Source: a virus. Taken from it: a stretch of DNA of 64,000 bases. Below the pieces are notes generated by a model. The model ran no database searches. It was not told the origin of the DNA and was given only the letters and a program-made list of their open reading frames with translations. A program made the position numbers and the translations under genes. This document shows positions 1,172 through 16,534 of this stretch, one piece after another (within the stretch, counting starts at the first letter, position 1; each line of letters starts with the position of its first letter). Location: IMG/VR virus record IMGVR_UViG_3300025096_000004, positions 64,001 through 128,000 of that record; one strand, 5' to 3'.

Positions 1172-1477
1172 ATGGCAAGCGAATTAGATAAATATTTACA
1201 AGAGACAGTGGACAATATCCGCAATGATAGAGAGGTCACCAAAGAATTGTTAGATGATGCAATGAAATGGTTAGCCAAGGACGAATCTCGTCATCGTGAG
1301 TTGGGACTTGTATTATCAAAATATGTTGAAACATTGCAGAGATCAAATGAGCAGTTGGTAAAAGTGGCCTCTCTTATTTCAAAAAAAGCATCATCCCAAG
1401 ATCTTACTGATGATGACAAAGAGCAAATATTTGATATGATCAAGGGAGATGAAAAAGATGAAACATCACAATCCTGA
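1172..1477 (+). CDS. Hypothetical helical protein
   Basis: 101-aa ORF filling the space between neighbours; no recognisable motif. Confidence 0.75.
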   Translation: MASELDKYLQETVDNIRNDREVTKELLDDAMKWLAKDESRHRELGLVLSKYVETLQRSNEQLVKVASLISKKASSQDLTDDDKEQIFDMIKGDEKDETSQS

Positions 1478-2642
1478 TTTGTTAGCAGATGATCATAGTC
1501 TAAGTCAAGTTCGTCAAGATATGGAGGATGATATAATTAAAGATGCTTTTTTTGATTTTACCAAAGGTAAGAGAAATTGGAGAGCAGTTTGTTTGACCGA
1601 TTCGGACTCATCAGATAAAAAAATGATAAATTCGCTAGATGGCTCTCGACTGCCAATCAAACTAAGAGTGTTGGATACATTGGATTCTGTTCTACCCAAC
1701 CCCTGTGCTCTTAAGTTTTCTGAGCCCGAGGTGAAAAAGATAGTTTCACTTTACCCAACCGGATGGTCAACACAGCCATTCGAAAATCGATACTCTTTGC
1801 CGTCATTTGGGCATGTATTAAGGGTCTCTTTTAATGAAAAAGGCCCCGCCGAACAAGGCCGCCACAGAGGTCTTCAGTACACATATAAGACAGATAAAGA
1901 AACAGAACGTTACGACTGTGAAACACGAAAGTTTATGGGCGGCCTAACTAGTTTTACAGGAAGAAATGCTAGATTATTGAGGTCTGTTGCCCCCGGTGCC
2001 GCCGGACCTCATGGCGCCATAGGCCCTCCTCTTGGCGCCGCCTCTTGGGATGACACCGTCGGCGCGGGTGAAACACATTGGTCTAATGAAGATACGAAGA
2101 ATAACTATATGGACAGCAATCACTCTAATCGAAATTCATATGATGATTTGATTGTCAAGTGGTCGTCTCAATATAATATTGATCCAAATTTGGTCAAAGC
2201 ACTCATATGGGCCGAGAGTGGTTTTAAAATCAAAGCTCAATCGAACAAAGGCGCCTCCGGCCTGACTCAGATCATGCCAGATACTCAAGAGAGTATTAAT
2301 AAAGTTTTAAAATATAAAACAATAAATTTGGGAGATCCCGACCAAGCGGTTCATTTTGGCGTTTATTATCTTGTAAGAAAAATAAATCAAGTCGCAGAGA
2401 AGAATTATGTAGACAAATATAAGGACGTCGAAAATGTAAACGCCGGCGGTAAAGGATATAGTGCGCTTGAATTGGGCTTAATATCATATAACTCTGGTCG
2501 AGGAAACTTGGTAAAATACGGCCCAAAGACAGTTATGGGTGAGAGATGGGACTGCAAAAACAACGCTTGTGGTCAAACAAGAAAATATGTTCGAAAGGTG
2601 ACAGCATGGTATGAATGGCTCCTCGCGAATGAAAAATTATAG
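1458..2642 (+). CDS. Baseplate hub/spike-associated protein: shared OB-like N-terminal domain plus SLT lytic transglycosylase domain
   Basis: SLT motifs ALIWAESGF, GASGLTQIMP and ISYNSG (about 2139-2620). The N-terminus is homologous to the next two ORFs. Start 1458 is preferred over 1449 because of SD spacing (AGGGAG at 1443-1448). Confidence 0.85.
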   Translation: MKHHNPDLLADDHSLSQVRQDMEDDIIKDAFFDFTKGKRNWRAVCLTDSDSSDKKMINSLDGSRLPIKLRVLDTLDSVLPNPCALKFSEPEVKKIVSLYPTGWSTQPFENRYSLPSFGHVLRVSFNEKGPAEQGRHRGLQYTYKTDKETERYDCETRKFMGGLTSFTGRNARLLRSVAPGAAGPHGAIGPPLGAASWDDTVGAGETHWSNEDTKNNYMDSNHSNRNSYDDLIVKWSSQYNIDPNLVKALIWAESGFKIKAQSNKGASGLTQIMPDTQESINKVLKYKTINLGDPDQAVHFGVYYLVRKINQVAEKNYVDKYKDVENVNAGGKGYSALELGLISYNSGRGNLVKYGPKTVMGERWDCKNNACGQTRKYVRKVTAWYEWLLANEKL

Positions 2643-2657
2643 AAAGAGGTACGCAAA

Positions 2658-4025
2658 ATGACTTATTTAAATCCTGACTTGATAGCTGATGATTTTTCGC
2701 TAAGCCAAATTCTCGAGGAGAAGGTAGCGAATCAACATGATGATATTTACAATAATACAATTAGGGGCAAGGAGCATTTTACAAGCAGGGTGATAACAAA
2801 CAGCGCATTACGCGGAAAAGATGAAAACTATACTGGCCGTCATTTTTTCTGTAAGGCACGTCCTCTTGACACAATGCATGATCATTGTGTTCCTGATCCA
2901 TGCACCAACCACAAGCTTGGAAAGGAGCAGCAAAAATTATTAATTAGCCTTCATCCCACTATGGTCTCCAAGAGTCCAATGAATGAGAATCAACGACCGC
3001 CAAGGTTTAGTGATAAGATAAAAATGTCTTTTTATGGAGAGGGTCCAAATGGAATGACAGCAAAAATGCGCGATATTAGATATTCCCACAAAAGCAAAAT
3101 AGATGAATTTCAATATGCATGCGCTTTTGAAGAGATAGAAGAAATGGCAGGTATGTTTGGATCTGGCCTCCCTTCAGAGCCCTTAAACCGATCAGGTGGG
3201 AACAGAAAACAGAGAGGTGACTTCCCCGACGCCAGTCTTTTTCACAACACGACTGACGGCCTCCCTGACAACCCATCGCCCAACATCCCCGGTCCATTTT
3301 CGAAATATTATGATTGTTCTAAAAAATATAAGTATACAGGCCAGCACCCTGACTTTCAAGGTCAAGAAATATATAATGGCCAATTTCCCAATGAACTCTT
3401 GGCCCTTGCTAAACACGGAAAAGGCGGCGGTGCTGGGCAAGAGAATGGAAAAACCATTTTGGCTCGCGAGGCTGTTAGATCATATGATGAAATGGCAAAA
3501 GCATATCACGCCGACACCGGCCGCGATCTTGTTGCTTCGGGCTATCGCCCGGTATATCGTCAACAGGACGCCCGCCAAGATGCTATTAAAAAATATGGTT
3601 CTCATTCCGGCTCGAAGGCATACAAAAAAACTGCAACCCCCGGAAATTCAAAGCATGGCCTCGGCCTTGCCGTCGATTTTAAGAATGGTAACATTGATCA
3701 CAGTGTCTATGGTTGGACAGATAAAACATATTATTGGTTGGTTGACAATGCCAATGCCTTTGGCTGGTACCACCCTTCTTGGGCTGCAAAGAATGATGAT
3801 AATGAACCGTGGCATTGGGAATATAAGTTTGCAGATAAAATTTTAAAGCTGAATACTGAATCCAAATCAGAAGCCCGAGCACGTCGAAGAGCTTTTGAGA
3901 AAGCCAACAAAATCGATTGCTCCAAGCGCAATCCAAAACTAAAAGTTTCGATAGATCCACTTGACACTGATACGACTTTATTTGATAGTCCTTTACTTAT
4001 TCAAATTCAACAGGGAGTGGCATAG
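2658..4025 (+). CDS. Baseplate hub/spike-associated protein: shared OB-like N-terminal domain plus M15/VanY-type zinc peptidase domain
   Basis: SGYR..Q, PGNSKHGLGLAVD (S-x-H-x6-D) and EPWHW zinc-peptidase motifs (about 3460-3830). The shared N-terminus begins NPDLIADDFSL. Confidence 0.85.
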   Translation: MTYLNPDLIADDFSLSQILEEKVANQHDDIYNNTIRGKEHFTSRVITNSALRGKDENYTGRHFFCKARPLDTMHDHCVPDPCTNHKLGKEQQKLLISLHPTMVSKSPMNENQRPPRFSDKIKMSFYGEGPNGMTAKMRDIRYSHKSKIDEFQYACAFEEIEEMAGMFGSGLPSEPLNRSGGNRKQRGDFPDASLFHNTTDGLPDNPSPNIPGPFSKYYDCSKKYKYTGQHPDFQGQEIYNGQFPNELLALAKHGKGGGAGQENGKTILAREAVRSYDEMAKAYHADTGRDLVASGYRPVYRQQDARQDAIKKYGSHSGSKAYKKTATPGNSKHGLGLAVDFKNGNIDHSVYGWTDKTYYWLVDNANAFGWYHPSWAAKNDDNEPWHWEYKFADKILKLNTESKSEARARRRAFEKANKIDCSKRNPKLKVSIDPLDTDTTLFDSPLLIQIQQGVA

Positions 4026-4028
4026 ATT

Positions 4029-5690
4029 ATGGGCGTTGAATATTATACAAATAATTTAGATGCTCTTGCTGATGATCATTCTTTAAGGGATATGCGTCGT
4101 CAACTTCTTTCTGATGCTTTGGATCAAAATGAGTTTAACACAAAAAAAAGAAGAAATGAATATATTGGTACTGTTCTTTCGAACGAGCAAGAGGCGGATT
4201 TCCCACAGGCCTCCGCCGGAGGCCAATCTATTGCTGTAAAGGTAAGGCTCGATGAAGCTCAAGAAGAATATTTGCCAGATTTTTGTGCTGACACTTGGAC
4301 TGAAAAGCAAAAATTTATTCTCTTGTCTTGTCATGGATCCGCCGTTAGTCATACTCCGCTCGTCGATGATAACGGCGAAAGAGTTCCTAAATTTGGGGAT
4401 CGATTGAGTCTTTTTTTCTCTGAGGAGTCTCCTGATTTCTATGGGAGAATGAGGGATTTAAGATATAGATACCCAACTAGCGAGGGGGAGATGTGGAAAA
4501 AGAAGTGCCCTCCAGCAAAACCATTTCTATTAGCTGAGATTGTCGGAGACAAGATTCAAATCAATGAAGAAATATTTTTTGCTTTTGACAAATGGGATAT
4601 AAAAGAAGTCAGCTTTAAAGTTTTATCCGCTGTTGCAAAAATCCTTAAAGCCAATCCAAGAATAAAAATCAAACTTGATGGACACACTGATAGTCGTGGC
4701 AGCAATAAATATAACATGGCTCTTTCCAAAAAGAGAGTGGCTTCTGTTTTTAAGCACTTAACAGAAGTAAACGGAGTGTCGGCATCTCAAATACCAAAGC
4801 GACAGGGCCATGGCGAAACAAAGCCATGGAGCAAGTTGTGTGACCAATATGGGGATCACCTCAAGAGAAACCCACCTAACACACCTAGAGGAAAAAAAGA
4901 ATGGACCTATTGTCACGCCAAAAACCGTCGGGTTGAATTTAATATTATTGAAGGATTGGAATCCGGCGCTGCTAGTTATGGCTCCGCCACCGCAACTACC
5001 GAACCCACCAAAACCGCCGCCGAATCCACCTCTGAAGCAGACACCTCTTCTGAAAAAAGACGAAAACATGAGGAAAAGGCCAAAGAGGGTCAAGAAGATC
5101 CATCTAAACCAGAAGAAGTCCGCGACGATCCTTCCCAATCCGAAGCATACATAGAAAAATCAGCAGAAACAAATTCAGAAAATTGGCAAAAGTGGTATGA
5201 ACATAAACTATCATCAGAAACAGATCCTGTCATGAGATCGACTCTAGAAGAATATATTCAAAATGAAAAGAATTATAGAAGAGATCGCCCTTATGGCGAA
5301 GACCCCATAAACATTTATCCGCCCCGCTGGCGCGGAGGAAATTCTTTAGAAGAGTGGCATAGACCTGCACCTCAAACAGATTTCGAGACAGGCCACAACA
5401 CTCCCTCTTCCGGTGATGCCTATGCTTGGGTGCCGTCAGTGGACATGACCATCGAGGCCGCCAAGGGATATATGGAACATCAACAGAGCAAGATGCAAGA
5501 TTTGTTTAACGAGTATGAACTACAACACAAAAAAGAAGGATATGACGCAGTCAATGAGTTTCTTCCTGATCCATGCGCCCCCGGGCTTTCTGAACAAGAA
5601 CGTCAACGAATTTTGTCAATGTACCCACTAGACCACCCACTCAGGACGGGAGAGAGGGATTGCTATGGCATCCCTGCTGATGCGGGCTGA
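4029..5690 (+). CDS. Baseplate hub/spike-associated protein: shared OB-like N-terminal domain plus OmpA-like peptidoglycan-binding domain
   Basis: IFFAFDKWDI, GHTDSRGSNKYNMALSKKR, GHGETKP and NRRVEF (about 4570-4945). The shared N-terminus begins NLDALADDHSL. Confidence 0.85.
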   Translation: MGVEYYTNNLDALADDHSLRDMRRQLLSDALDQNEFNTKKRRNEYIGTVLSNEQEADFPQASAGGQSIAVKVRLDEAQEEYLPDFCADTWTEKQKFILLSCHGSAVSHTPLVDDNGERVPKFGDRLSLFFSEESPDFYGRMRDLRYRYPTSEGEMWKKKCPPAKPFLLAEIVGDKIQINEEIFFAFDKWDIKEVSFKVLSAVAKILKANPRIKIKLDGHTDSRGSNKYNMALSKKRVASVFKHLTEVNGVSASQIPKRQGHGETKPWSKLCDQYGDHLKRNPPNTPRGKKEWTYCHAKNRRVEFNIIEGLESGAASYGSATATTEPTKTAAESTSEADTSSEKRRKHEEKAKEGQEDPSKPEEVRDDPSQSEAYIEKSAETNSENWQKWYEHKLSSETDPVMRSTLEEYIQNEKNYRRDRPYGEDPINIYPPRWRGGNSLEEWHRPAPQTDFETGHNTPSSGDAYAWVPSVDMTIEAAKGYMEHQQSKMQDLFNEYELQHKKEGYDAVNEFLPDPCAPGLSEQERQRILSMYPLDHPLRTGERDCYGIPADAG

Positions 5691-5741: not shown

Positions 5742-6713
5742 ATGCCAACAGATAAGAAAAAACATGTAAATCAATTGTGCTTAAAGCCAAATAACCCCTT
5801 GACCTTTTGGAAAAAATTGGGCTATCCCCCCGGTCAATTTTGTACTGCATTAGATGAATATTTTCCAAAACTTGAAAGGGCGGGCTGTGAAGTGATTTAT
5901 AGTGGCAAAAATAATAGCGATATTGTCCTTGGGCGAGATCGAGATGCCTCTCTTGCGTCTGGATACGGCGGGTCTGGTGGAACTCAATGTGGAATGATTG
6001 ATATTGTTGTCGGCCGCTTGGCATGTCAACCAGTTCAAAAATGTGAGGTTATTACTGGTCCGAATTTTTGTGATGACGGTGCTCGTATTTATTTAACCCA
6101 ACGAGGAGATATAGATAAATATTTTGGTCTCCCCAAGGGAAAGGTTAGTGGGAAAACGGATAATAGTGCAGCCATTGGCATTAAGTCTGATCATACTAGA
6201 ATAATTGGCAGAGAGACAGTTAAAATATATGCTGGCCAAGGAGATTTTCAAGGCTTGGGTATGAATGGTGAACGAAATTCCAAGGGTGGCAGTATTGACC
6301 GTCGTGGGGTTATTGAATTGATAGCTGGATATCGAGATCCTAAATACATCCATCCCGCAGTCTTGGGAACTAACTTAGTAGAGTGTCTAAAGGGGCTTTA
6401 TAGATTAATAGCTCAAACTTTTTCTGCGCTTCATCACACTCACCTTATTCAATCGAAGATGTATGTTGCACTGTCCGGACATTCACACCAAGGCACCGGC
6501 ATCGGTGCTATTACTACTTTTCCAGACCCAATGTTGACTTACAAATCATTCAAGTCTTTTGCAAAAGCCGCCGCTTCCGGGTTTGATGACATGTTGTCGA
6601 TTATGAACACAGCTAGAGACGAGATGGAATATTGCGGCGTGGGTGATCCTAAGACAGGAGATCTCATTCCCGGATGGAAAAATATAACGAGTACAAAAGT
6701 CTTTTTAACATGA
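5742..6713 (+). CDS. Central spike-like protein (gp5/gpV C-terminal beta-helix type) with HxH motif
   Basis: Short beta-strand repeats (SDIVLGRD, ARIYLTQ, IGIKSDHTRIIGRETVKIYAG), an H-S-H motif at aa 247-249, and a position between the hub genes and gp25. Confidence 0.55.
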   Translation: MPTDKKKHVNQLCLKPNNPLTFWKKLGYPPGQFCTALDEYFPKLERAGCEVIYSGKNNSDIVLGRDRDASLASGYGGSGGTQCGMIDIVVGRLACQPVQKCEVITGPNFCDDGARIYLTQRGDIDKYFGLPKGKVSGKTDNSAAIGIKSDHTRIIGRETVKIYAGQGDFQGLGMNGERNSKGGSIDRRGVIELIAGYRDPKYIHPAVLGTNLVECLKGLYRLIAQTFSALHHTHLIQSKMYVALSGHSHQGTGIGAITTFPDPMLTYKSFKSFAKAAASGFDDMLSIMNTARDEMEYCGVGDPKTGDLIPGWKNITSTKVFLT

Positions 6714-6720
6714 GGTAAAT

Positions 6721-9700
6721 ATGGCAGAAAAAACAATAAGGGATTTCCAGACAGATGTTTGTGAACCCCTAAAACCCCCTACACCAGAAAGAGCCTGTCC
6801 AGAGTGTATACCCAACCCAGATGCAATTCTTGAGGATTGGACGCTTTCTGATGGAGAGCCGTTTTTTAACGAACGAACGTGTGAATATCAAGTTGCAGTT
6901 ATGATTAACCAAGATGGTGATTATTATCGTGCGAAAGAACTCCGCGAAGCTGATGAGAAGGGCATAGATTTTGAAATGGTTTTACAGTCCTTTGTCCTTC
7001 CCGGGTTGCGAATAATGCTTAGATATTATGATAAAGACGAATCCGATAAATTTGTGTGTGCCTTCCCGCCAGAATTCGAACACCAATATGAAAAGTCCGG
7101 TGGTGAGTCCGCCACCGAAGTTGTCACTGCTATGGGAGTTGGTTTTTTATGGGGCGGTATACCGGGAGCCATCATTGCTGGTGGGCTTGAGGTCGCCTCC
7201 GAAGTTGCAGAATGGGTTATGGATGAGAAGACCACGGAAGACAGAGCCGCCGAGGGACAGAGCGGCACAGGAGATTCAGACAAATATGGATATGACCGCG
7301 TTGCTGAGGACTACGAACGGACCCAAAATGAGATTGTGGAGGATTATAAAAATATGGTCGAAATGAGAGAAAATAATATCTCAAAGCAATCTCTTCGCTG
7401 TCGATCAATTTATAAACAAATGGTTGACGGAACACTGCCAAAGCATTTTCACAGCCAAGTCACAAAGAAGATAGAACTAACAACTGGTTTGCCAGATGGA
7501 AGTACTTTTGAAATAGTCATCCCAAACCCAAGTGGTCTTTTGGCATACCAAGAATCCAATAATGAAATTAAAAACCCTGATGCTTTGGAATTGTACGCCA
7601 GAGCAATAGATTTTGACTATGGACAAACCCCGGGCGAACCAATGATGGTTTTGGTATCAATTCCTTCCTATATAATGGACAAGGTTCCTCCCCATCCAAC
7701 TCCTGAAATAACCGATTTTTCCGGTCCACAAGAGGTCGTGCTCGATGGCCCACGAATATATGCCATGACAAGTCGATTGTCTGAAGCTTTAAGAGTTTAT
7801 GGCAATTATCAGGCGTATTGGTGGCAAACAGAGCGAGCTACCCTGTATCAGAAAATGATGCTACCAGATGGCACATTTGTTTCTCAAACCACCGGCGGCG
7901 CGGGAGCAGCCTTCTCAGAATCTTCTTTAATTAGTGAGATGGTCGGAGGCAGCGTAGAGGTGGAAACCCCAACAGATTATGAATTAGTTGGTGATCCACA
8001 AGTATTTTATATTATTCAATACCAACAAGCAATTGTCGATTTTTATATGGCTTTACAGGAATTATTGGAAAAAAATGATTTTCGTTTAACCGCATGGCCC
8101 AATTTTCTAGGAGATCGAGCAGAAGAGGTTAAAATAGTATTTGAACAAGTTGAGCCCCCAGACACAACCAAGTCCACCGACCCATCGACACCCGCCCCCT
8201 CTGGACATTTTAAAATAAAATCAGTTTGGGCAAAATATGATTTATGTGGTTGGCACAAAATGAAACAAATGGGGGGATTCTTAAACCACCCCTCGGTGAG
8301 GAACGAAACAATAATGGGGTATGTTTCCAGATTACCAGAAATAGATACCGCTTTGACTGCAAAGTCGACACCCCCGTGGTTAGATTTTATTGTTCAATAC
8401 ACATATCCTCCTTTGGATGTCAGATATCATTCTGATGCTGGTTCCCAAGGAAAACCTGCTGTCGGTGGCTGTTTTCCACTGGGCGAAGGGGGCGCGGAAG
8501 CCTTTAGAGATTGGGTTTTTAACTCAGTAATGTCCCTTGGAGAAGCTGTTGCATATCAATTTAACAAATCTTCTTGTAAGTTGCTGACAGATCCTACATA
8601 CCGCCCAACAGAAAAAAAATGGGCCGACTGGCGCAAAGGACAACGAGAAGAACACATAAAAAGAATAAACGAACACTATGCTCGAGAAGAGGCCACCATT
8701 ATGGCCGCAGGTCAAAGAATTAGAGAAAAGGAGTATAAAGATCCTCTCACAAAATCCGCAGACTACCAAGCCCAGCAACAAGCCCTTCAGTCTAGCAGGG
8801 ACAATAGAAAGGAGGCCCTTAATCATCCTTACAGGTCCGCCGCCATTGATGCCGCTTTACAAGAGTTTGATATGGATAGTTCCCTGATTGGTCTTTTTAT
8901 AGATCAAGCTGAACTTCGTAAACTCGGCCTTGGCACATCAATTTGGAAAGGCTTTAAGGGAACACTTGGGGGTAAAGACCCCGGAGTTAGTAAATTTGAA
9001 ATGTTCAAGACTAGAATAGATAAGTGTGGTTTTTCAGCGATGCTGTTCAAAACAATCCAGTGCTTAATGGGCGGCGTCACCGCCGCCGCCGCTTACGACG
9101 CCGCAGCGAAAGCCTTACTTAAATCTTTAGAGAAGGCCAATTGGGAGATTTTATTTGTTGGTATACCTTATCACAAACAGATTGAAATAAAGGACAGAGT
9201 TAACAAAGAAATGGGTAATTTGCCTCCCCCTTGGGAGTGGGTTCCCGGAAAGAATGAAATTCCTGATGATAAAATGAAAGTTGTTGAGCATGCCGACAAT
9301 GTTAAGTCTTATGAGCAACAAATCATGATAAATGACGAAAAATTGCAATCGCTGGACACCGAGTGGTTCGGTATTAATGATTCCATAGATCAGACCATGG
9401 CAAAACAGAGCCTCGCCCAGAACGATGATGAAAGACAGACATGGTTTGATATGCAAAAAGAACTAGAAAAAAAGCAATCTGACGTCGATGACCGGATGGA
9501 GGACATAAAGCGCCAAAACAAAAAATTGAAAGCAAAGACTGGAGCTTTCTGGAAATCTGATGATAAGGCCTATAGTGATTTTAAGGCTTTGTCTGACGAC
9601 GACAAAGAAAGAATCAGAAAGGAAACAGCAGCTTATCAAAAATCTCTCGGTTCAGACCCACAGAGTCGATATACTCAAGGCTCTGTCGGCGGAGGTTTGG

Positions 9701-12700
9701 GAAAAGCACAACAAGCAGCTTTTGACATCTATATTGATGCGATTATCGAAGTTTGGGGCGGCGAGCATGTTTTAAACTTTTGCGAAAGGTTTCCCGGAGC
9801 TAAGTTTATAGTTGATGCGATTAGGAGATGGGATTGTCCATATCCAAATCTTTTTAATCCACCAGCCGGCTCCTTTATGGAATCATTTAGTTTGGATATT
9901 TGTTCTGGAGATGCAAGTGGCAAATTGTCGATGCCTCATTTAATGTCTTTTGGTAACCTTACTTGGACAAATATTATTAAGATTTTGTGGCAAGCGATAT
10001 TGAAACAAGTAACTGCATCTCTTTTTAAGGTCTTGGTTACAATGATAGTAAAGGTATTGCAGATTCTGGAATCTGCCCTTTGCAAAGCTATAGAGCTTGC
10101 GGGCCGCTTGGCTGTGAACCTCATTACTCCCGGCGATCAAGGTGGGTTCATGGGGGCAATTTCGGATGTTTTTTGCGGCGACCAAGGGACTGCTGATGAT
10201 GAGCAGGTTACCGCTTCAAATCTTTTTTCTGCTTTGGGAATTAATCCCTCTGATATTCAAGGAATGAATCAAGAAGATCTCATGGATTCCCACATGAAAG
10301 TCGCTCAAACGCTGTCATCTGTTAGTACAAGAAATGAGATAAAAGAATTATTTATTTCAGATTCGCGTGATCATGACCAAAACGTTCTTAGAAGAATATC
10401 AAAAGCAGTATCGTTAGTCAATCCAGAATATGCTTCTATTTTTTCTGACCCCAATAATATTTCACAGCTTTTCGCAGCCGCGAAGAATTATTTAACACCA
10501 ACTCAGCTTATGGCCCTCCGAGAGGAATTGGATGCACCAGAGGATGATGTTCCTGTTGACGATAGTATTTGTTTGACCAAAGCCCAACTTGACAAGTGGA
10601 ATGAAGATAGAGAAGCTATATTTTCCGAGCTTCCCGGTGATTTGGCCAAAGAGTGGGTAGATAAACAAAACGATAAGGCAAAAACCGATCTAATTGAGGT
10701 TTGCTCGTTGGCCGCGAGAGGGGTTGACGGACCCATGCGCGATGAGCTTGATAAATTACTTAACTTTGAAACCGCCATGGGAGATCCGGCATGTAAAAAA
10801 AATACATCTGCCATCAGTTTTCGGACTCCCGAGACCGACGCTGCTGATGAAGAAGCTGCAAGTGGCATCTTTCGATCTTTGACAAAAGAATTTCAAAAAG
10901 ATATGATTGGCGGCGGCTGGATTTGGAACAAGTATGGGGTGGTTGATCATATGCTTGCGGATAGGAGAGGAACCCCTCTTAGAAAACATGAAAATAGAGT
11001 TAGATCGAGCTTTTTATGGCCCAGTTGGGCGAATACTCAAGAGGATTATGAAGCGAAAAAAGATGATTTAGCTGAATTTCTTGGCATTCCTGAAGATTTT
11101 ATAGATTGGATTTTGCCAGAAGATGCTTCGGGGATCTTCCCCGATACAGTTGGGATCTTGTTGCAAGATGAGTTATTTAAAAATGATTTCCATTCTGATC
11201 CAAAGTTTTCATATGGTTCCGGTACAAGCATCGCCCCACAGACCGGCTTAAAAGAGCGGTGGTTTGGAATTGATTATAGTTTTACCTATTCAAAGCCAAT
11301 TATGAAAGATGCAGATATGATTTGGACATATAAGGACAATTTGACTCCCCTTGAGACAGACAAGTCAGAGTATGGTTTTGCAATGCATTATCGTTCTTTT
11401 ATTATTAATGGTTTGAATACAAGCGAAACACCAATGGTATCAACCAAGTTTGATTATGAAATTAGTCTAGATTCTCACCTATATTACAATGAATCCATCG
11501 ATCCCGAAACCGGTGTTGCATCTCCAATGCCTGAGAGTGTCGTCAGTATAGAGAAATTTAGAATGAAGGTACAAAATGATATTGATCACCCTCGTCAAGA
11601 AATCATAGATTCATTGGAAATTCAATCATCGGACCTTGCTTCTATGAAATATACCTATGAAAGCCTTTTATGGTGGAAATATTGTGAAAGCAGGTGGTCT
11701 GAATTTGGCGTTTCTTTATCAAAATTTAACCTTGCGGAAACATCTTGGAAAAATATTTCTGGAAAAATGTTTGAAGATGTTGCCAACATGATGATGAATC
11801 CAAATGGAGATATTGCCAGTGGGTTTAAATATGGATATACCTCCGATTCATCGATTGGCTTTAAAGATCTCTTATATGTTAACCCCGGAGCAGACCCCGA
11901 TGATGAGAGTACGTGGGAATATACATACGATGAAGAAGAAAAAGTTTTGGGCAAATCAGCCACTAATAACCCTAGGGTCCACTTTCTTGACCCCGATATT
12001 CACGGCGGTTGGTATTCGTGGCCCAAAGTTTATGTGGATAGGTTTGAATATTCTGGCCTTTTAAGTGTGATTCAAATAATGGTTCCAGATATTGATGGTT
12101 GTCCACCCAAGACGACTGATTTTTTAGATTGGAAATATTTGTCTAATCGCCAAGTAGAAGTCAAGCAAAAAATGATTCCTGACAAGCGTTTGACAAAGGA
12201 TGAAGAGTGTGTGAAAAAAATCCCATTTGATCTTATTCAAACAAATGATATTCATGGTTATATCGAGGCATCGGTCCTTGCAACAGTTCGAACTTATGTT
12301 TCTGAATTCATATTGAGGTCCTTGCCTGTAATATCTGCTTTGGAATTTAATGATAGAAACTATGATGATGCTCTTGCGCAAATGATAGTGCAAAATATGG
12401 AAACAGAGTTGCCGGATCAGGGCTCGTGGCTTGACTGGACTTGGATTAAGCGATATGATTATTGGCTACACTTTTTAGAACAAGCATATCAAATAGTAGA
12501 ACGCAGAATCGATCTGAAAGAGTTACACCCCACTGAAGAAATGAACGAGGTTATTGATGCTATAAAAAAGATTCAAAGAAGTTATGTTCATGTTAACAAT
12601 GACGTAATGGAGAATCTTGAGAAGAACATCCACGCCGAATCTTTGCCACATCTTAGGGACAAGTACCCTGACGAAGATGATGAATATTTTAGGGGCCGGA

Positions 12701-14229
12701 GGGTTTTGTTCCTGAACGATGACCCACGACCCAAGGATGCAGATTATCAAATAATGAAGGGAGCGTCTATCATTTATTTTGGTCGAACCGCTGATCAAAT
12801 AACGCGATTTAGAAGACAAGGTAAAGCCAAATGGTATGATGGTATGGAGACTAGGTTCTCTAATAACTTTTTTACTATAGTTCATGCTCGACGATGTGCA
12901 AAATTATATTCTTTACATCGAGGCCGCAAGCATTGTAAAAAAATGTTAAAACATCTTGTAAAAGAAGAATTGCAAAACTATGCTGAAAAGATCTATAATA
13001 CTCTAAAGCCTGCTGCAACCATAACAAGTTTATCAAAATATTACATTGGAGCCAGTAATTCAATAATTAACGGTGGTTTGCGAACTGGAATCGCAGCCAC
13101 TGAAACTCCACATCCAGCAACTCTGGAATCAACTGGGGAAGTAATTGAAACCTATATTGAGTCTATCGGTGATTGTGTCGACGTTAGTTCTGATATAAGC
13201 CTATATAATCCTTTAGATGCTGAAGGTCTTGTTGTTCCTGATCTCGATGCCGGACAATTTGTAGTTGAGAAGTATGTGAGAATAATCGACAAGCCAGAAA
13301 ATGAAAGCGAAAATGTACCAGATTTTATAAAAAATAGACCAGATAATTTGAGGGGTGTTGTTAGTATAAAGGAATTCAGAAAATTTGTTAATGAGAATAT
13401 GATTAACAATCCACTATTTGACCAAGAAGCCTACAATTTGTCCGATTTGTTTGGCGATGCAGAGCTTTTAAGAAATTTGCAGGAAAAACCCACCGGCCTC
13501 ATTGGCTCTGTCGGGTTTAGATTTGGAGTTCGATTGAGTTTAGTTCCTCCTAATGGATTTACTGTCCCTGAACCAGACTCCGATATGCTAAAAATTGCCC
13601 AACGAGAAAAGGCCTTTTATTTAAAGAAATCTTCGCAAGGGGGTATGAATACGAGACATATTTTCCCGCTTGCAGTATTTGAAAAGGATATTTTGGATGA
13701 TAAAATATCAAAAATTGATTGGGAACATGAAGCTTTTGGAGAAGATTTTCGATGCTATATTGACAATTTAGTTGAAACTCCACAGTTTAGATTGGTTTTT
13801 GATAATATATTTCCACTTCGCCGGGCTTCTTCTATGGTTGCGATATACACCAATTTTGGTTGGCTTCCATCTATAGGAAAGTCCGACAAAGAACGAGATA
13901 CGGCATGGGGCGACCGACCAATACTTCTGGGAGGCTTGGCTGACCCCGATTCACAAGAGATTTGGGGTGAGGGCCTATTTGAAGGCACTAAAATATCCTG
14001 CTATAGGATGTTCCATGGTTTCTATGAATCGGATAGTTGGGATTGGGGATGGGACTGGAATTATGATTTTAACTTTTCAATTTGGTTTAAAGACATGATG
14101 CCAAAGATATTTATGAATATTGATCCTACAACCCGTTGGTGGCAACGATGGAGGATTGAGAGAGACCGTCCCTTTGATAAAGATGGCGAACAATGTGATC
14201 ATCTTTTGTCAAATTTATTTGTTTGGTGA
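6721..14229 (+). CDS. Giant (2502 aa) virion-associated protein of unknown function
   Basis: Uninterrupted ORF with SD GAGGT, located between the spike and gp25 genes. Has a Cys-rich N-terminus, a glycine-rich hydrophobic segment and coiled coils. Confidence 0.85.
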   Translation: MAEKTIRDFQTDVCEPLKPPTPERACPECIPNPDAILEDWTLSDGEPFFNERTCEYQVAVMINQDGDYYRAKELREADEKGIDFEMVLQSFVLPGLRIMLRYYDKDESDKFVCAFPPEFEHQYEKSGGESATEVVTAMGVGFLWGGIPGAIIAGGLEVASEVAEWVMDEKTTEDRAAEGQSGTGDSDKYGYDRVAEDYERTQNEIVEDYKNMVEMRENNISKQSLRCRSIYKQMVDGTLPKHFHSQVTKKIELTTGLPDGSTFEIVIPNPSGLLAYQESNNEIKNPDALELYARAIDFDYGQTPGEPMMVLVSIPSYIMDKVPPHPTPEITDFSGPQEVVLDGPRIYAMTSRLSEALRVYGNYQAYWWQTERATLYQKMMLPDGTFVSQTTGGAGAAFSESSLISEMVGGSVEVETPTDYELVGDPQVFYIIQYQQAIVDFYMALQELLEKNDFRLTAWPNFLGDRAEEVKIVFEQVEPPDTTKSTDPSTPAPSGHFKIKSVWAKYDLCGWHKMKQMGGFLNHPSVRNETIMGYVSRLPEIDTALTAKSTPPWLDFIVQYTYPPLDVRYHSDAGSQGKPAVGGCFPLGEGGAEAFRDWVFNSVMSLGEAVAYQFNKSSCKLLTDPTYRPTEKKWADWRKGQREEHIKRINEHYAREEATIMAAGQRIREKEYKDPLTKSADYQAQQQALQSSRDNRKEALNHPYRSAAIDAALQEFDMDSSLIGLFIDQAELRKLGLGTSIWKGFKGTLGGKDPGVSKFEMFKTRIDKCGFSAMLFKTIQCLMGGVTAAAAYDAAAKALLKSLEKANWEILFVGIPYHKQIEIKDRVNKEMGNLPPPWEWVPGKNEIPDDKMKVVEHADNVKSYEQQIMINDEKLQSLDTEWFGINDSIDQTMAKQSLAQNDDERQTWFDMQKELEKKQSDVDDRMEDIKRQNKKLKAKTGAFWKSDDKAYSDFKALSDDDKERIRKETAAYQKSLGSDPQSRYTQGSVGGGLGKAQQAAFDIYIDAIIEVWGGEHVLNFCERFPGAKFIVDAIRRWDCPYPNLFNPPAGSFMESFSLDICSGDASGKLSMPHLMSFGNLTWTNIIKILWQAILKQVTASLFKVLVTMIVKVLQILESALCKAIELAGRLAVNLITPGDQGGFMGAISDVFCGDQGTADDEQVTASNLFSALGINPSDIQGMNQEDLMDSHMKVAQTLSSVSTRNEIKELFISDSRDHDQNVLRRISKAVSLVNPEYASIFSDPNNISQLFAAAKNYLTPTQLMALREELDAPEDDVPVDDSICLTKAQLDKWNEDREAIFSELPGDLAKEWVDKQNDKAKTDLIEVCSLAARGVDGPMRDELDKLLNFETAMGDPACKKNTSAISFRTPETDAADEEAASGIFRSLTKEFQKDMIGGGWIWNKYGVVDHMLADRRGTPLRKHENRVRSSFLWPSWANTQEDYEAKKDDLAEFLGIPEDFIDWILPEDASGIFPDTVGILLQDELFKNDFHSDPKFSYGSGTSIAPQTGLKERWFGIDYSFTYSKPIMKDADMIWTYKDNLTPLETDKSEYGFAMHYRSFIINGLNTSETPMVSTKFDYEISLDSHLYYNESIDPETGVASPMPESVVSIEKFRMKVQNDIDHPRQEIIDSLEIQSSDLASMKYTYESLLWWKYCESRWSEFGVSLSKFNLAETSWKNISGKMFEDVANMMMNPNGDIASGFKYGYTSDSSIGFKDLLYVNPGADPDDESTWEYTYDEEEKVLGKSATNNPRVHFLDPDIHGGWYSWPKVYVDRFEYSGLLSVIQIMVPDIDGCPPKTTDFLDWKYLSNRQVEVKQKMIPDKRLTKDEECVKKIPFDLIQTNDIHGYIEASVLATVRTYVSEFILRSLPVISALEFNDRNYDDALAQMIVQNMETELPDQGSWLDWTWIKRYDYWLHFLEQAYQIVERRIDLKELHPTEEMNEVIDAIKKIQRSYVHVNNDVMENLEKNIHAESLPHLRDKYPDEDDEYFRGRRVLFLNDDPRPKDADYQIMKGASIIYFGRTADQITRFRRQGKAKWYDGMETRFSNNFFTIVHARRCAKLYSLHRGRKHCKKMLKHLVKEELQNYAEKIYNTLKPAATITSLSKYYIGASNSIINGGLRTGIAATETPHPATLESTGEVIETYIESIGDCVDVSSDISLYNPLDAEGLVVPDLDAGQFVVEKYVRIIDKPENESENVPDFIKNRPDNLRGVVSIKEFRKFVNENMINNPLFDQEAYNLSDLFGDAELLRNLQEKPTGLIGSVGFRFGVRLSLVPPNGFTVPEPDSDMLKIAQREKAFYLKKSSQGGMNTRHIFPLAVFEKDILDDKISKIDWEHEAFGEDFRCYIDNLVETPQFRLVFDNIFPLRRASSMVAIYTNFGWLPSIGKSDKERDTAWGDRPILLGGLADPDSQEIWGEGLFEGTKISCYRMFHGFYESDSWDWGWDWNYDFNFSIWFKDMMPKIFMNIDPTTRWWQRWRIERDRPFDKDGEQCDHLLSNLFVW

Positions 14230-14302: not shown

Positions 14303-14683
14303 ATGTCATCCCCTAAAGCCGCACCAAAATTACCAATTGAAATTGTTAATGGAACAGTTGATTCATTTGATATTTCTGAAGTACAAGAGATTGTAAAACA
14401 AAATGTCAAAATGGTTGTATTAACTTATCCCGGAGAAAGGATAATGATGCCAGAGTTTGGCGTAGGTATGCCAAGATATCTTTTTGAACAAGCAGGTTCT
14501 GAGATCCCAGCAGAACTTAAAATGATTATAAGAGACCAATTGAAAAGATATATTCCATCTATTAATTTATTAAATGTCTCTGTAAGATCCGGTTTTGATG
14601 ATCATAAATTAAATGTTTCGATATCTTATGAGATTGACTTTTTAAGTATAAAAGATCGACTAGATTTGTTATTGGAGTATTAA
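14303..14683 (+). CDS. gp25: Baseplate wedge subunit, GPW/gp25 family
   Basis: VKQNVKMVVLTYPGERIMMPEFGVG..YLFE motif; 126 aa; precedes the gp6-like gene. Confidence 0.9.
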   Translation: MSSPKAAPKLPIEIVNGTVDSFDISEVQEIVKQNVKMVVLTYPGERIMMPEFGVGMPRYLFEQAGSEIPAELKMIIRDQLKRYIPSINLLNVSVRSGFDDHKLNVSISYEIDFLSIKDRLDLLLEY

Positions 14684-14697
14684 ACTTATTTAAAATT

Positions 14698-14706
14698 ACT
14701 ATTTAT
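14698..14706 (+). promoter_or_regulatory. ACTAnTTA intergenic motif (ACTATTTAT), putative late promoter element
   Basis: Lies in the gap before the gp6-like gene; identical to the copy at 14257. Confidence 0.45.
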
Positions 14707-14728
14707 TGACAAGAGGGCTTAATATAAA

Positions 14729-16534
14729 ATGGCAAGAAAAAAACAAATTCCAATAAAATATACTAGTAGAGATTTTATTTCCATAAAGAGTGAACTAATA
14801 GAACACGCAAGGAGATATTATTCCGAAACGTATAAAGACTTCTCCGCCGCATCTTTCGGTTCTTTAGTTATAGATACTGTTTCTTATGTGGGAGATGTGC
14901 TATCATTTTATTTGGACTATCAGGCAAATGAGAGTTTTATGGAGACTGCCATTGAGTCAGAAAATGTCCGCCGCCATGCCAAAAATTTGGGATATAAATA
15001 TAATACAAATAGTAATTCTTTTGGTTTTGTTTCGTTGTATATTATAGTTCCATCAAATTCCGATGGCTCTTCTCCTGATTTTTCTTATGTGCCAATTTTA
15101 AAATGGGGCTCATCATTTAAATCATCAACTGGTGCCGAATATAGTTTAACAGAAAATGTCGATTTTGGGAATGCGAAAAACGATATTGTATCTGCCCGAT
15201 TTGATTCAACCACTGGTATGACTACTCATTTTGCAATCCGTGCGATAGGCCAAGTGGTGTCCGGCCAGACTGGTGCCATATCGCTTGATTTAACTTCACA
15301 TCCTTTTGAAAAATTCAAGCGTGTCCGCCTTGGTGGAACAGATATCACTGAAGTCATTTCAATAACGGATAACGAAGGTCATATATGGTATGAGGTTGAT
15401 AATTTGTCTCAGGAGATAGTATTTTTGGATACGACCAACCGCAATGCTTTTAACGATGGCGTCCCAAGTATTATTAAACCATTTGTTGCAGCTAGGCGAT
15501 TTGTTGTGGACCAAGGTCCAGAAGGAACATATTTGCAATTTGGCAATGGGTCTGATTTGTCAACACAAGTAACGGGACTCCTCGAGCCAACCCGAGTTGG
15601 CATGAAACTTTATGGAAAAAGAAATATCTCCTCTTTATCATTTGACCCCACTCACCTGATTAATTCTGGAAAACTAGGTATGTGTCCAAGTGGCAAACAC
15701 CTTCGAGCAGTAGTTAAGATAAATCCTTTCACGCAGGGATATTCTTCTCCTGTTGGGTCGATAAACACTGCTCTCACTTTCGAACTTCAATTTGAAGATC
15801 CAACTTCTCTAGATCCAACGATCATAAACTCAATCATAGATTCTCTAGAAGTAAACAACGACGATCCCATTGTTGGGTCTAATGAAGAACTGACAAAAGA
15901 TGAAATTAAAATAAGAGCAAGGGCCCACTATGCAATGCAAAACAGAGCAGTAACCGCCGGCGATTATGAATCGTTGGTTTACTCTATGCCGCCTAATTTT
16001 GGCACAGTCAAAAGGTGTAATATTATAAACGATCCGTCTTCTGCAAATCGCCGACTGGCTATGTATGTCATCTCTGAAAATGAAGACGGCCACCTAACCT
16101 CAACAAACAATATTATAAAAAATAATTTAAAAAACTGGATATCGATATATCGTTCCATAAATGATGTTGTCGATATACTTGATGCAAAGGTTGTAAATTT
16201 TGGTGTTGAATTTTCTGTTGTAACGTCCGCACAGTACAATTCGCAGGATGTCATACAATCTGCAATTTATGAACTACAAGAATATTTTAAGGATGGTATG
16301 TATATTGGAGAACCTTTGTATCTTAGTGAGATTTATAGGGCATTGAATTCAACTCCCGGCGTTGTTGATGTGAAAAATGTTAAGATAAATATTAAATCTG
16401 GCGGAGTGCATTCCGCTAACACTCTAGATTTAGATGAAATATTGTCCCGAGATGGTACATACTATAAGGTTCCAAAAAATGTAATAATGGAATTGAAGTT
16501 CCACCAGTTGGATATTAAAGGTATTATTAGATAA
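14729..16534 (+). CDS. gp6: Baseplate wedge subunit, T4 gp6 / baseplate J family
   Basis: YTSRDFISIKSEL..Y.DF..AS.G..VID..SYVGDVLSFYLD..ANE.F..TA at the N-terminus and QNRAVTAGDYE in the J-like domain. Confidence 0.9.
   Translation: MARKKQIPIKYTSRDFISIKSELIEHARRYYSETYKDFSAASFGSLVIDTVSYVGDVLSFYLDYQANESFMETAIESENVRRHAKNLGYKYNTNSNSFGFVSLYIIVPSNSDGSSPDFSYVPILKWGSSFKSSTGAEYSLTENVDFGNAKNDIVSARFDSTTGMTTHFAIRAIGQVVSGQTGAISLDLTSHPFEKFKRVRLGGTDITEVISITDNEGHIWYEVDNLSQEIVFLDTTNRNAFNDGVPSIIKPFVAARRFVVDQGPEGTYLQFGNGSDLSTQVTGLLEPTRVGMKLYGKRNISSLSFDPTHLINSGKLGMCPSGKHLRAVVKINPFTQGYSSPVGSINTALTFELQFEDPTSLDPTIINSIIDSLEVNNDDPIVGSNEELTKDEIKIRARAHYAMQNRAVTAGDYESLVYSMPPNFGTVKRCNIINDPSSANRRLAMYVISENEDGHLTSTNNIIKNNLKNWISIYRSINDVVDILDAKVVNFGVEFSVVTSAQYNSQDVIQSAIYELQEYFKDGMYIGEPLYLSEIYRALNSTPGVVDVKNVKINIKSGGVHSANTLDLDEILSRDGTYYKVPKNVIMELKFHQLDIKGIIR

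What the first reader, a model, noticed from the sequence alone, without database searches (positions are those of the whole stretch)
1458..5690. Three tandem spike/hub paralogues share one N-terminal domain but carry three different peptidoglycan modules
All three ORFs begin with a homologous ~150-aa domain: N(P/L)D.LADD.SL, K.R...(L/V)P(N/D)(P/F)C, P.F(G/S)(H/D).(L/I)...F..E.P and R.(L/I).Y. The P.F(G/S)...F...P segment resembles the gp5/gpV/VgrG OB-fold. The C-termini differ: a glycan-cleaving SLT, a stem-peptide-cleaving M15 zinc peptidase, and an OmpA-like binder. T4 gp5 is a homotrimer with a single lysozyme. Three paralogues for a three-fold position suggest either a heterotrimeric cut-glycan/cut-peptide/hold-wall penetration device or interchangeable spike heads analogous to evolved VgrGs. 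I do not know of a described example.
Basis: partly seen in the sequence, partly recalled or inferred. Interest (0 to 1): 0.88.

Follow-up and report, generated by a model that had tools for sequence, protein, structure and literature searches.

The report
Three spike-head paralogues with wall-acting cargo
An uncultured marine T4-like phage encodes three side-by-side versions of the small barrel domain that sits at the head of a phage's cell-piercing tail spike. Each version carries a different cell-wall-acting module, and related phages swap these modules and have tripled the gene more than once.

Summary
ORFs 1449/1458-2642, 2658-4025 and 4029-5690 share a ~165-aa N-terminal domain (BLASTP E 4e-18 to 5e-13). 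They end in SLT, VanY/M15 and OmpA-like modules with intact signature motifs.

The gp5/VgrG OB-fold guess holds at fold level. AlphaFold2 gives pLDDT >90 for an N-terminal helix plus OB barrel. In an unbiased search of 48,161 PDB chains, the top eight hits are all central spikes of phages or contractile injection systems (Z 5.5-7.3). No sequence method links the domain to gp5.

None of the three proteins has a beta-helix needle. The conserved 323-aa gene downstream (5742-6713) weakly matches the spike segment that follows the OB domain. This suggests a split spike, comparable to T4 gp5* plus gp5C encoded as separate genes.

About 130 metagenomic relatives carry this domain N-terminally, fused to many different cargoes. 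Cargo is swapped directly after the barrel.

Of 68 related loci, 57 have one copy and 5 have three (7 trios counting the window and L002). One further locus, not among the 68, has two copies. Triplication arose at least twice independently.

An obligate heterotrimer is therefore possible but unproven, and it is not required in single-copy relatives. The scan noted analogous split-spike paralogue sets on other DNA (e1-5380454, e1-5856211).

The parts
1172..1477 (+). 101-aa helical protein directly upstream of the paralogues; a ~96-104-aa gene holds this position in all relatives examined; role unknown
   Evidence: gene tables; no Pfam or PHROG hit above threshold
1449..2642 (+). Paralogue A (397 aa; alternative start at 1458 gives 394 aa): N-terminal helix plus spike-type OB domain, disordered linker, SLT lytic transglycosylase
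1458..1958 (+). Paralogue A carrier domain (aa ~4-170): helix aa 15-35, then OB barrel (strands 44-48, 60-67, 70-74; helix 92-101; strands 104-107, 122-131, 140-144)
   Evidence: AF2 model m57b3616fe7b6, pLDDT >90 over aa 10-160; VIA Z 7.3 to P1 gp5 and Z 6.2-6.3 to T4 gp5 residues 6-129
2148..2522 (+). SLT domain of A (aa 234-358), with catalytic Glu in AES (aa 255-257) and the GLTQIM and SYNSG motifs
2658..4025 (+). Paralogue B (455 aa): carrier domain aa 1-167, linker, VanY/M15 zinc peptidase aa 268-389 (SKHGLGLAVD, EPWH)
4029..5690 (+). Paralogue C (553 aa): carrier domain aa 1-161; OmpA-like peptidoglycan-binding domain aa 183-267 (TDSRGSNKYNMALSKKR); E/S/A/T/P-rich low-complexity region aa ~310-480; partial repeat of the carrier's LPDPC-helix segment aa ~488-534
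5742..6713 (+). Conserved 323-aa neighbour, the candidate separately encoded spike body or needle: beta-rich aa ~42-164, long helical hairpin 209-245/263-298 with HxH (aa 247/249) in the connecting loop
   Evidence: AF2 pLDDT 86. VIA Z 5.4, rmsd 2.7, 73 aa, 22% identity to Streptomyces CIS spike 9gtr_q residues 463-544, just after that spike's OB domain. Weak ESM-Atlas leads to Gp5_C and DUF2345. Adjacent to an OB carrier gene in at least 62 of 68 related loci. HxH in 45 of 86 homologues.
6721..14229 (+). 2502-aa giant protein between the 323-aa gene and gp25; conserved position in relatives (2147-3039 aa); function unknown
   Evidence: The L007 orthologue has a precomputed PG_binding_1 hit.
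14303..16534 (+). gp25-like (14303-14683) and gp6/Baseplate_J-like (14729-16534) wedge genes; they place the locus in the baseplate module

Best explanation
The three genes encode spike-head subunits of the baseplate's central spike complex. They are functional counterparts of T4 gp5* (OB domain plus lysozyme after cleavage), but encoded without the needle.

Proposed mechanism:
1. Each protein has an N-terminal helix, a spike-type OB barrel, a flexible linker and one envelope-directed cargo.
2. By analogy with cyanophage A-1(L) gp25, the helices form a tripod that holds the C-terminal helices of the tape-measure protein.
3. Three OB barrels form the ring under the hub at the tip of the tail tube.
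4. The needle is probably supplied by the separately encoded 323-aa protein downstream.
5. On sheath contraction the complex is driven through the outer membrane. The tethered cargoes then act locally on the sacculus: SLT cuts glycan, M15/VanY cuts stem peptide, and the OmpA-like module binds peptidoglycan.

The carrier is a constant delivery handle. Cargo is exchanged by recombination just after the barrel.

In this phage lineage the carrier gene was triplicated long ago. The three-fold ring can therefore carry up to three different activities, either as mixed trimers or as a defined A-B-C heterotrimer.

Shown: domain homology, the predicted fold, synteny, cargo diversity and copy-number history.
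Inferred: virion location, tripod and ring geometry, the split-needle partner, and stoichiometry.
For: Paralogy: BLASTP E 4e-18 to 5e-13.

Fold:
- The AF2 N-domain has pLDDT >90 with helix plus beta1-3/alpha/beta4-5 topology.
- A wide VIA search of 48,161 chains puts only central spikes in ranks 1-8: P1 gp5 Z 7.3, A-1(L) gp25 6.3 (including its N-terminal helix), AFP 6.3, PVC 6.3, AlgoCIS 6.0, Streptomyces CIS 5.9, VgrG1 5.8, KP1 5.5. Mu, phiKZ, pyocin and P2 gpV spikes follow lower down.
- T4 gp5 residues 6-129 score Z 6.2-6.3.
- The A-1(L) spike is described as N-terminal helix (TMP-binding tripod) + OB + beta domain (PMC10966104). P1 gp5 is the trimeric spike (PMC12810830).

Context:
- The locus is a late structural block: gp55-like, 101 aa, A, B, C, 323 aa, giant protein, gp25, gp6.
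- The same order occurs in relatives.
- No other Gp5_OB, Phage_base_V, Gp5_C or PAAR hit exists in the complete 191-kb genome.
- A separate Amidase_2 gene far away (genome 184795-185715) is a candidate lysis endolysin.

Split needle: the 323-aa model's aa 42-164 match the segment just after the OB domain of a CIS spike (Z 5.4, 22% identity). The Atlas gives weak leads to Gp5_C and DUF2345.

Family:
- 129 representatives carry the domain, apparently always N-terminal.
- Cargoes include VanY, SLT, Amidase_2, M23, lysozymes, LysM, OmpA, YkuD, DSP phosphatase and GDSL lipase.
- Long single-copy forms carry two enzymes in cis.
- Window A and L001 A are 67% identical to aa 177 and unrelated afterwards.
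Against: - Z-scores are moderate (all below 8), and OB is a common small fold.
- There is no sequence-level link to gp5 or gpV: Pfam, PHROG and PDB-sequence searches and hhalign against T4 gp5 were all negative.
- No hub (gp27-like) or tape-measure gene was identified in this genome, so the docking partners are unknown.
- The needle assignment of the 323-aa protein rests on one Z 5.4 match and sub-threshold Atlas leads. Foldseek and the wide VIA search returned only helical-hairpin matches.
- No fused OB-needle protein was found.
- There are no proteomic, expression or structural data for any member.
- A spike whose OB ring is not covalently joined to its needle has, to my knowledge, only the cleaved T4 gp5 as precedent.
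Confidence: 0.68

Rival explanations
1. Obligate A-B-C heterotrimer. One copy of each paralogue occupies the three-fold ring, so every virion carries exactly one glycan cutter, one peptide cutter and one wall binder.
For: - The A, B and C lineages are stably co-inherited as orthologous sets in four phages (window, L001, L002, L006), with 97-100% branch support.
- The genes are tightly coupled, with 15-nt and 3-nt gaps.
- Expansion stopped at three in every multi-copy lineage except one. Trios arose independently: the AU test rejects a single origin including L052 (p 0.0015) and is marginal for L011 (p 0.042).
- Three-copy states (7 loci, at least 2-3 origins) outnumber the two-copy state (1 locus), although two copies is the necessary intermediate.
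- Cargoes within a set are nearly always different.
- Heterotrimeric specialised VgrG spikes are an accepted model in T6SS (review PMC10433429).
Against: - 57 of 68 related loci have a single carrier gene, so homotrimers work.
- A genuine two-copy phage exists (L066).
- Some single-copy phages achieve multi-activity with two enzymes in cis.
- Nothing tested here separates a defined heterotrimer from random mixing or from three kinds of homotrimer.
- The AU groups were named after seeing the tree.
Confidence: 0.3
2. Interchangeable heads with mixed or alternative assembly. A, B and C compete for the same three positions, giving a heterogeneous virion population (homo- and mixed trimers). This would be a bet-hedging arsenal against differing cell walls.
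For: - This reading rests on the same fold and synteny evidence as the best explanation.
- Single-copy relatives prove that homotrimeric use of the carrier works.
- Cargo swapping between close relatives shows the carrier tolerates any cargo.
- Copy number is variable: 1, 2 or 3.
Against: - The window's three OB domains are only 26-30% identical. Free cross-assembly is therefore not guaranteed.
- Long-term retention of all three lineages suggests each is individually needed.
Confidence: 0.35
3. The proteins are not spike components. They would be soluble endolysins, or ejected or tail-lumen proteins, that use a generic OB domain as a cell-wall or oligosaccharide-binding module.
For: - The catalytic domains match PHROG 'endolysin', 'internal virion protein with endolysin domain' and 'tape measure' families, over the enzyme part only.
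- OB folds commonly bind oligosaccharides.
- Structural Z-scores are below 8.
- No virion data exist.
Against: - The eight best structural matches out of 48,161 chains are all central spikes. Generic OB proteins (RNase II, IF1, S12) rank lower.
- The N-terminal helix plus OB layout equals that of the A-1(L) spike.
- The genes sit at a fixed position in the baseplate operon next to gp25 and gp6 in more than 60 phages.
- Non-lytic cargoes occur (OmpA, LysM, phosphatase, and OB-only forms of ~197 aa).
- A separate Amidase_2 candidate endolysin lies elsewhere in the genome.
Confidence: 0.12

Closest known systems
Bacteriophage T4 gp5 (gp5* + gp5C) in the gp27-gp5 cell-puncturing device (PDB 1K28)
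   Same: - An N-terminal OB domain is followed, through a linker, by a peptidoglycan hydrolase carried on the central spike.
- After maturation cleavage T4 has OB+lysozyme (gp5*) and needle (gp5C) as separate chains, as proposed here.
- Structural match Z 6.2-6.3 over gp5 residues 6-129.
- The genes sit next to wedge genes.
   Different: - T4 has one gene, one enzyme and a homotrimer, with the needle encoded in the same polypeptide.
- Here there are three paralogous OB carriers with three different modules and no beta-helix.
- An extra N-terminal helix is present.
- There is no detectable sequence similarity.
Central spikes of simple myophages and CIS: P1 gp5 (9VZK), Anabaena phage A-1(L) gp25 (8KEA), Mu gp45, P2 gpV
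   Same: - These are the best structural matches (Z 7.3 and 6.3).
- A-1(L) gp25 has the same N-terminal helix + OB order, with the helix forming a tripod that binds the tape-measure C-terminus (PMC10966104).
   Different: - Those spikes continue directly into a beta-helix or beta domain and carry no enzyme.
- In A-1(L) the hydrolases sit on the hub, not on the spike.
Specialised ('evolved') VgrG proteins of type VI secretion, e.g. Vibrio cholerae VgrG-3 with a peptidoglycan-degrading C-terminal domain; heterotrimeric VgrG spikes
   Same: - A constant spike scaffold carries swappable C-terminal effector domains.
- Several paralogues per system can be combined in one trimer (review PMC10433429).
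- The VgrG OB domain is a structural match (Z 5.8).
   Different: - VgrG is a gp27-OB-beta-helix fusion, with the effector after the needle.
- Here only helix + OB is present, and the cargo follows the OB domain directly.
- This is a phage virion protein, not a bacterial weapon.
- Heterotrimer formation is not shown here.
Virion-associated peptidoglycan hydrolases on other scaffolds (tape-measure proteins, T7 gp16-type internal proteins, A-1(L) hub gp15)
   Same: The same classes of catalytic domain (SLT, M15, M23, amidase) are used for local wall opening at infection. PHROG hits to such proteins cover the enzyme part only.
   Different: The carrier scaffold differs. Here it is a dedicated ~165-aa helix+OB handle with no Pfam or PHROG family.

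Membership tests
gp5/gpV/VgrG-type central spike (OB-domain superfamily of contractile injection systems) | OB-fold barrel of the spike type at the start of the spike protein | tested here: met
   The AF2 model has pLDDT >90. Ranks 1-8 of 48,161 PDB chains are central spikes, Z 5.5-7.3. T4 gp5 residues 6-129 score Z 6.2-6.3. The Z-scores are moderate, so this shows fold-level resemblance and does not prove homology.
gp5/gpV/VgrG-type central spike (OB-domain superfamily of contractile injection systems) | Sequence membership in Pfam Gp5_OB (PF06714) or Phage_base_V (PF04717) | tested here: not met
   There is no hit at E<=1 anywhere in the genome. Pfam finds nothing over the N-domain. hhalign of A1 against T4 gp5 gives probability 0.1.
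gp5/gpV/VgrG-type central spike (OB-domain superfamily of contractile injection systems) | Trimeric beta-helical needle C-terminal to the OB domain in the same chain | tested here: not met
   The OB domain is followed by a linker and an enzyme or binding domain. There is no Gp5_C hit in the genome. The needle is possibly supplied in trans by the 323-aa protein (weak).
gp5/gpV/VgrG-type central spike (OB-domain superfamily of contractile injection systems) | Gene located in the baseplate module next to gp25/W and gp6/J homologues | tested here: met
   gp25 and gp6 lie 8.6 kb downstream on the same strand. The same order occurs in L005-L011.
gp5/gpV/VgrG-type central spike (OB-domain superfamily of contractile injection systems) | Trimer docked under a gp27-like hub in the virion | not testable with these tools
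   No hub was identified and no virion data exist. The complex-prediction tool was unreachable.
SLT lytic transglycosylase (PF01464), paralogue A | Pfam hit above cut-off plus the catalytic Glu-Ser, GLxQ and AYNxG-type motifs | tested here: met
   76.3 bits against a cut-off of 21.3. AES at aa 255-257, GLTQIM at 271-276, SYNSG at 346-350. Activity was not assayed.
VanY / peptidase M15 (PF02557), paralogue B | Pfam hit above cut-off plus the zinc-ligand motifs SxHxxGxAxD and ExxH | tested here: met
   62 bits against a cut-off of 25. SKHGLGLAVD at aa 331-340 and EPWH at 383-386. Activity was not assayed.
OmpA-like peptidoglycan-binding domain (PF00691), paralogue C | Pfam hit above cut-off plus the TDxxGxxxYNxxLSxxRA motif with the DAP-binding Asp and Arg | tested here: met
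   57.9 bits against a cut-off of 27.2. TDSRGSNKYNMALSKKR at aa 220-236. Binding was not assayed.
Heterotrimeric specialised spike (VgrG1/2/3-type) | Different paralogues co-assemble in one trimer | not tested
   Only indirect evidence exists: co-inherited orthologous trios and independent triplications, set against a single-copy majority.

The most novel reading that the evidence does not exclude
This phage group builds a modular, split central spike. A separately encoded needle (the 323-aa protein, possibly a six-helix bundle tipped by an HxH metal site) is capped by a defined A-B-C heterotrimer of OB carriers. Every virion would then deliver one glycan-cutting, one peptide-cutting and one wall-gripping module. 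Selection for filling the three symmetry-related slots with different cargo would have driven the same triplication repeatedly in separate phage lineages.
Probability: 0.25. Interest if true: 0.85.

Novelty: new variant of a known kind. Interest (0 to 1): 0.66.

Why it matters
Central spikes of contractile tails are usually described as homotrimers of one gene carrying at most one enzyme.

- This work defines an unannotated ~165-aa helix+OB 'handle' family with no Pfam or PHROG entry. It has about 130 cluster representatives and is widespread in uncultured marine T4-like myoviruses. It works as a plug-in carrier for at least a dozen kinds of envelope-acting cargo, including non-peptidoglycan ones (phosphatase, lipase).
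- The family gives a natural system for asking how a three-fold position is diversified: one gene with enzymes in cis, or three paralogues with one cargo each.
- It is a phage counterpart to specialised or heterotrimeric VgrG spikes.
- It offers a ready annotation rule for many 'hypothetical' baseplate genes.
- If the heterotrimer is real, it would be, to my knowledge, the first phage spike with programmed asymmetry of enzymatic cargo.

Tried and rejected
- DNA and protein searches of 50,697 phage records with the locus, the N-domain and the 323-aa protein found no match. By portal protein, the closest cultured phages are Flavobacterium phage immuto (42%), Microcystis phage Mel-JY01 and RM378.
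- A PDB sequence search with the N-domain profile and with the 323-aa protein gave nothing.
- hhalign of A1 against T4 gp5, and of A4 against T4 gp27, gp53 and gp5, gave nothing. The templates were single sequences, so power was low.
- IMG/VR scans with the single 323-aa protein and with the C-lineage alignment failed, and A1 was too divergent to scan with. Alignment A4 worked.
- For the 323-aa model, Foldseek against PDB and BFVD and the wide VIA search returned only generic helical hairpins or an unnamed homologue.
- PHROGs found nothing for the three giant proteins. The Atlas found nothing for the N-terminus of the 2502-aa protein.
- The search for longer, fused homologues of the 323-aa protein found none, which is weak evidence. 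The extended 'anchors' in L047 and L055 have non-OB N-terminal extensions.
- The T4 late-promoter motif TATAAATA is not upstream of the locus.
- I considered a '1 or 3 copies only' rule and rejected it: L066 has two copies.
- Complex prediction (323-aa protein plus A's N-domain) was attempted nine times and the machine did not complete (include these attempts). No result exists.


Full report
**What is there**

The window is bases 64001-128000 of a 191,495-bp IMG/VR virus record rated 100% complete. Almost all genes lie on the + strand. Recognisable genes are T4-like:
- a gp55-like late sigma factor (431-1153)
- gp25 (14303-14683)
- gp6/Baseplate_J (14729-16534)
- primase, an SbcC-like protein, large terminase and portal

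By portal protein the nearest cultured phages are only about 42% identical: Flavobacterium phage immuto, Microcystis phage Mel-JY01 and RM378. This is therefore a distant, uncultured marine T4-like myovirus. Relatives come from TARA and other marine assemblies.

**Observation**

Three tandem ORFs, A (1449/1458-2642), B (2658-4025) and C (4029-5690), are separated by 15 and 3 nt.

Pfam assigns SLT, VanY/M15 and OmpA to their C-terminal parts, all well above the curated cut-offs. The diagnostic motifs are intact.

Their first ~150-170 residues are homologous at 26-30% identity, with BLASTP E-values of 4e-18, 1e-15 and 5e-13. Within the whole genome, a profile of this domain hits only these three proteins.

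**Fold of the shared domain**

No Pfam, PHROG or PDB-sequence hit covers the domain. Gp5_OB, Phage_base_V, Gp5_C and PAAR models find nothing in the genome.

A profile search of 1.84 billion cluster representatives returned 129 proteins at E<=1e-3. In the listed matches the domain starts within about 50 residues of the N-terminus, and lengths are mostly 340-540 aa.

With 124 of these as the alignment, AlphaFold2 modelled residues 10-160 of A at pLDDT >90. The model is a helix (aa 15-35) followed by a beta1-3/alpha/beta4-5 barrel, the OB topology.

A structure search not biased by Foldseek compared the model with 48,161 PDB representatives. Ranks 1-8 were exclusively central spikes of phages and contractile injection systems:

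| Match | Z |
|---|---|
| P1 gp5 | 7.3 (80 aa, rmsd 3.0) |
| A-1(L) gp25 | 6.3 (alignment includes its N-terminal helix) |
| AFP | 6.3 |
| PVC | 6.3 |
| AlgoCIS | 6.0 |
| Streptomyces CIS | 5.9 |
| VgrG1 | 5.8 |
| Klebsiella phage KP1 | 5.5 |

Mu, phiKZ, R2 pyocin and P2 gpV spikes appear further down, interleaved with generic OB proteins. T4 gp5 residues 6-129 score Z 6.2-6.3.

The Z-values are moderate. What carries the argument is three things together: spike OB domains rank ahead of the far more numerous generic OB proteins, the position in each target is correct, and the genes lie in the baseplate module.

The A-1(L) paper describes its spike as an N-terminal helix (a tripod that intertwines with the tape-measure C-terminal helices), then an OB fold, then a beta domain (PMC10966104). 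P1 gp5 is the trimeric spike (PMC12810830).

**What the proteins lack, and the neighbour**

None of A, B or C has a beta-helix. The barrel is followed by a low-confidence linker and then the cargo. They resemble T4 gp5* (OB + lysozyme) rather than a whole spike.

The next gene (5742-6713, 323 aa) has hundreds of unnamed homologues. Its model has pLDDT 86, with a beta-rich half and a long helical hairpin.

Most structure searches saw only the hairpin. In the second-look alignment, the only non-helical match placed residues 42-164 on residues 463-544 of the Streptomyces CIS spike (Z 5.4, rmsd 2.7, 22% identity). That segment directly follows the part of the same chain (378-462) that matched the OB domain of A.

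The ESM Atlas's nearest named clusters were DUF2345, Gp5_C and Gp5_trimer_C. Their scores (0.82-0.84) are below the level at which they count as more than leads.

An HxH motif lies in the loop at the tip of the hairpin in 45 of 86 homologues. HxH apexes are a feature of tip-less spikes (PMC12407873), and no PAAR gene is present.

I therefore propose, with modest confidence, that the spike is split: OB heads on A, B and C, and the body on the 323-aa protein. No fused form was found.

**Comparative genomics**

The same block (gp55-like, ~100 aa, carrier gene(s), ~320 aa, giant protein of 2100-3000 aa, gp25, gp6) recurs in every related contig examined.

Using the 323-aa protein as anchor, 80 IMG/VR loci were fetched. 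An iterated profile found a carrier gene directly upstream of the anchor in nearly all of them.

Among 68 loci with at least 4.5 kb of upstream sequence:

| Copies of the carrier gene | Loci |
|---|---|
| 1 | 57 |
| 3 | 5 |
| none detected | 6 |

The window and L002 are two further three-copy cases. L066 is a genuine two-copy case that falls outside the 68.

Single carriers range from ~197 aa (OB only) to 1422 aa. The long ones carry two enzymes in cis: Amidase_2 + M23, or VanY + Amidase_2.

Across the family the cargoes include VanY, SLT, Amidase_2, M23, several lysozymes, LysM, OmpA, YkuD, DUF2272, DSP-type phosphatase and GDSL lipase.

Window A and its closest relative L001 A are 67% identical up to residue 177 and unrelated beyond. 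Cargo is thus exchanged just after the barrel.

**History of the triplication**

In a tree of OB domains, the copies from the window, L001, L002 and L006 fall into three orthologous lineages, each with 97-100% support. That triplication is old and all three copies have been kept.

The trios of L011 and L052 and the pair of L066 each cluster within their own genome and next to single-copy phages. L005's trio is sister to the window clade.

Paralogues within these sets are 37-57% identical. Recent gene conversion is therefore unlikely to explain the within-genome clustering.

An AU test rejects a single clade containing all trios once L052 is included (p 0.0015). It is marginal for L011 (p 0.042) (the groups were chosen after seeing the tree).

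At least two, and probably three, independent expansions ended at exactly three copies. Only one lineage sits at two and none exceeds three.

**Mechanism and alternatives**

The best-supported reading is that A, B and C are spike-head subunits that tether wall-acting modules to the tip of the tail tube. Their N-terminal helices would contact the tape measure, and their OB barrels would form the three-fold ring.

A separate Amidase_2 gene elsewhere in the genome is a better candidate for the lysis endolysin.

Whether the three paralogues form a defined heterotrimer, mix freely, or make alternative homotrimers cannot be decided here. The single-copy majority shows that heterotrimers are not intrinsic to the family. 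The co-retention of three lineages and the repeated arrival at three copies are what one would expect if filling the three slots with different cargo is advantageous.

The planned complex prediction could not be run because the service was unreachable in all attempts.

**Relation to the known, and novelty**

Functionally this is a variant of the T4 gp5 tail lysozyme and of specialised VgrG spikes (PMC10433429). It differs from both in four ways:
- It has a helix+OB-only carrier.
- The needle appears to be supplied in trans.
- The cargo set is polymorphic and partly not peptidoglycan-directed.
- The carrier gene has been triplicated recurrently.

Earlier notes of this scan describe analogous tandem OB-carrier sets next to spikes in other, non-homologous phage DNA (e1-5380454, e1-5380431, e1-5856211, e1-5856206). 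I did not test them. They suggest the design is recurrent in uncultured T4-like phages.

I rate the finding as a new variant of a known kind, with fairly high interest.

Noticed in passing
window 5490-5630 (ORF C aa ~488-534): The C-terminus of paralogue C repeats the most conserved segment of the carrier domain (LPDPC + helix + S.YP). It follows a 170-aa E/S/A/T/P-rich region. It may be a recombination scar from cargo swapping or a strand-complementing peptide. Similar small second hits occur in L014 and L087.
   Followed up: partly
window 5742-6713 (aa 247-249): The conserved 323-aa neighbour has an HxH motif in the loop joining its two ~35-residue helices, present in 45 of 86 homologues. 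In a trimer this would put three HxH motifs at the tip of a six-helix bundle, reminiscent of the iron-binding apex of tip-less spikes. No PAAR gene is present in the genome.
   Followed up: partly
window 6721-14229, 18539-26893, 26895-33332: Three giant proteins (2502, 2784 and 2145 aa) flank gp25 and gp6 and have no Pfam or PHROG hit. The first keeps its position between the 323-aa gene and gp25 in all relatives (2147-3039 aa). Its L007 orthologue has a PG_binding_1 hit.
   Followed up: partly
window 1172-1477 and 118-1153: A conserved upstream block precedes the carriers in every relative: a small Zn-ribbon protein (in relatives), a ~130-aa protein, a gp55-like ~220-240-aa protein and a ~100-aa helical protein. 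The ~100-aa protein could be an assembly factor or part of the spike complex.
   Followed up: no
L005, L006, L007, L009, L010, L011 (first ~5 kb of each locus): Relatives carry large sugar-nucleotide and glycan-modification gene sets just upstream of the gp55-like gene. These include DegT aminotransferase, epimerases, glycosyl- and sulfotransferases, radical SAM/B12 enzymes and UDP-glucose dehydrogenase.
   Followed up: no
window 44454-47597: A 1047-aa protein combines an N-terminal metallophosphoesterase hit (aa 2-110) with an SbcC/gp46-like body. This is possibly a gp47-gp46 fusion.
   Followed up: no
L011 7325-8602 and 5926-7323; L006 7601-8752: Some carrier paralogues bear a DSP-type protein phosphatase (hits include the polymorphic-toxin Tc-R-P domain) or a GDSL/SGNH lipase instead of a peptidoglycan enzyme. 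The handle may therefore deliver effectors aimed at targets other than the sacculus.
   Followed up: partly
genome G000:C1:184795-185715 (outside the window; L092): A stand-alone Amidase_2 protein (306-313 aa) lies far from the baseplate module. It is the likely lysis endolysin.
   Followed up: partly
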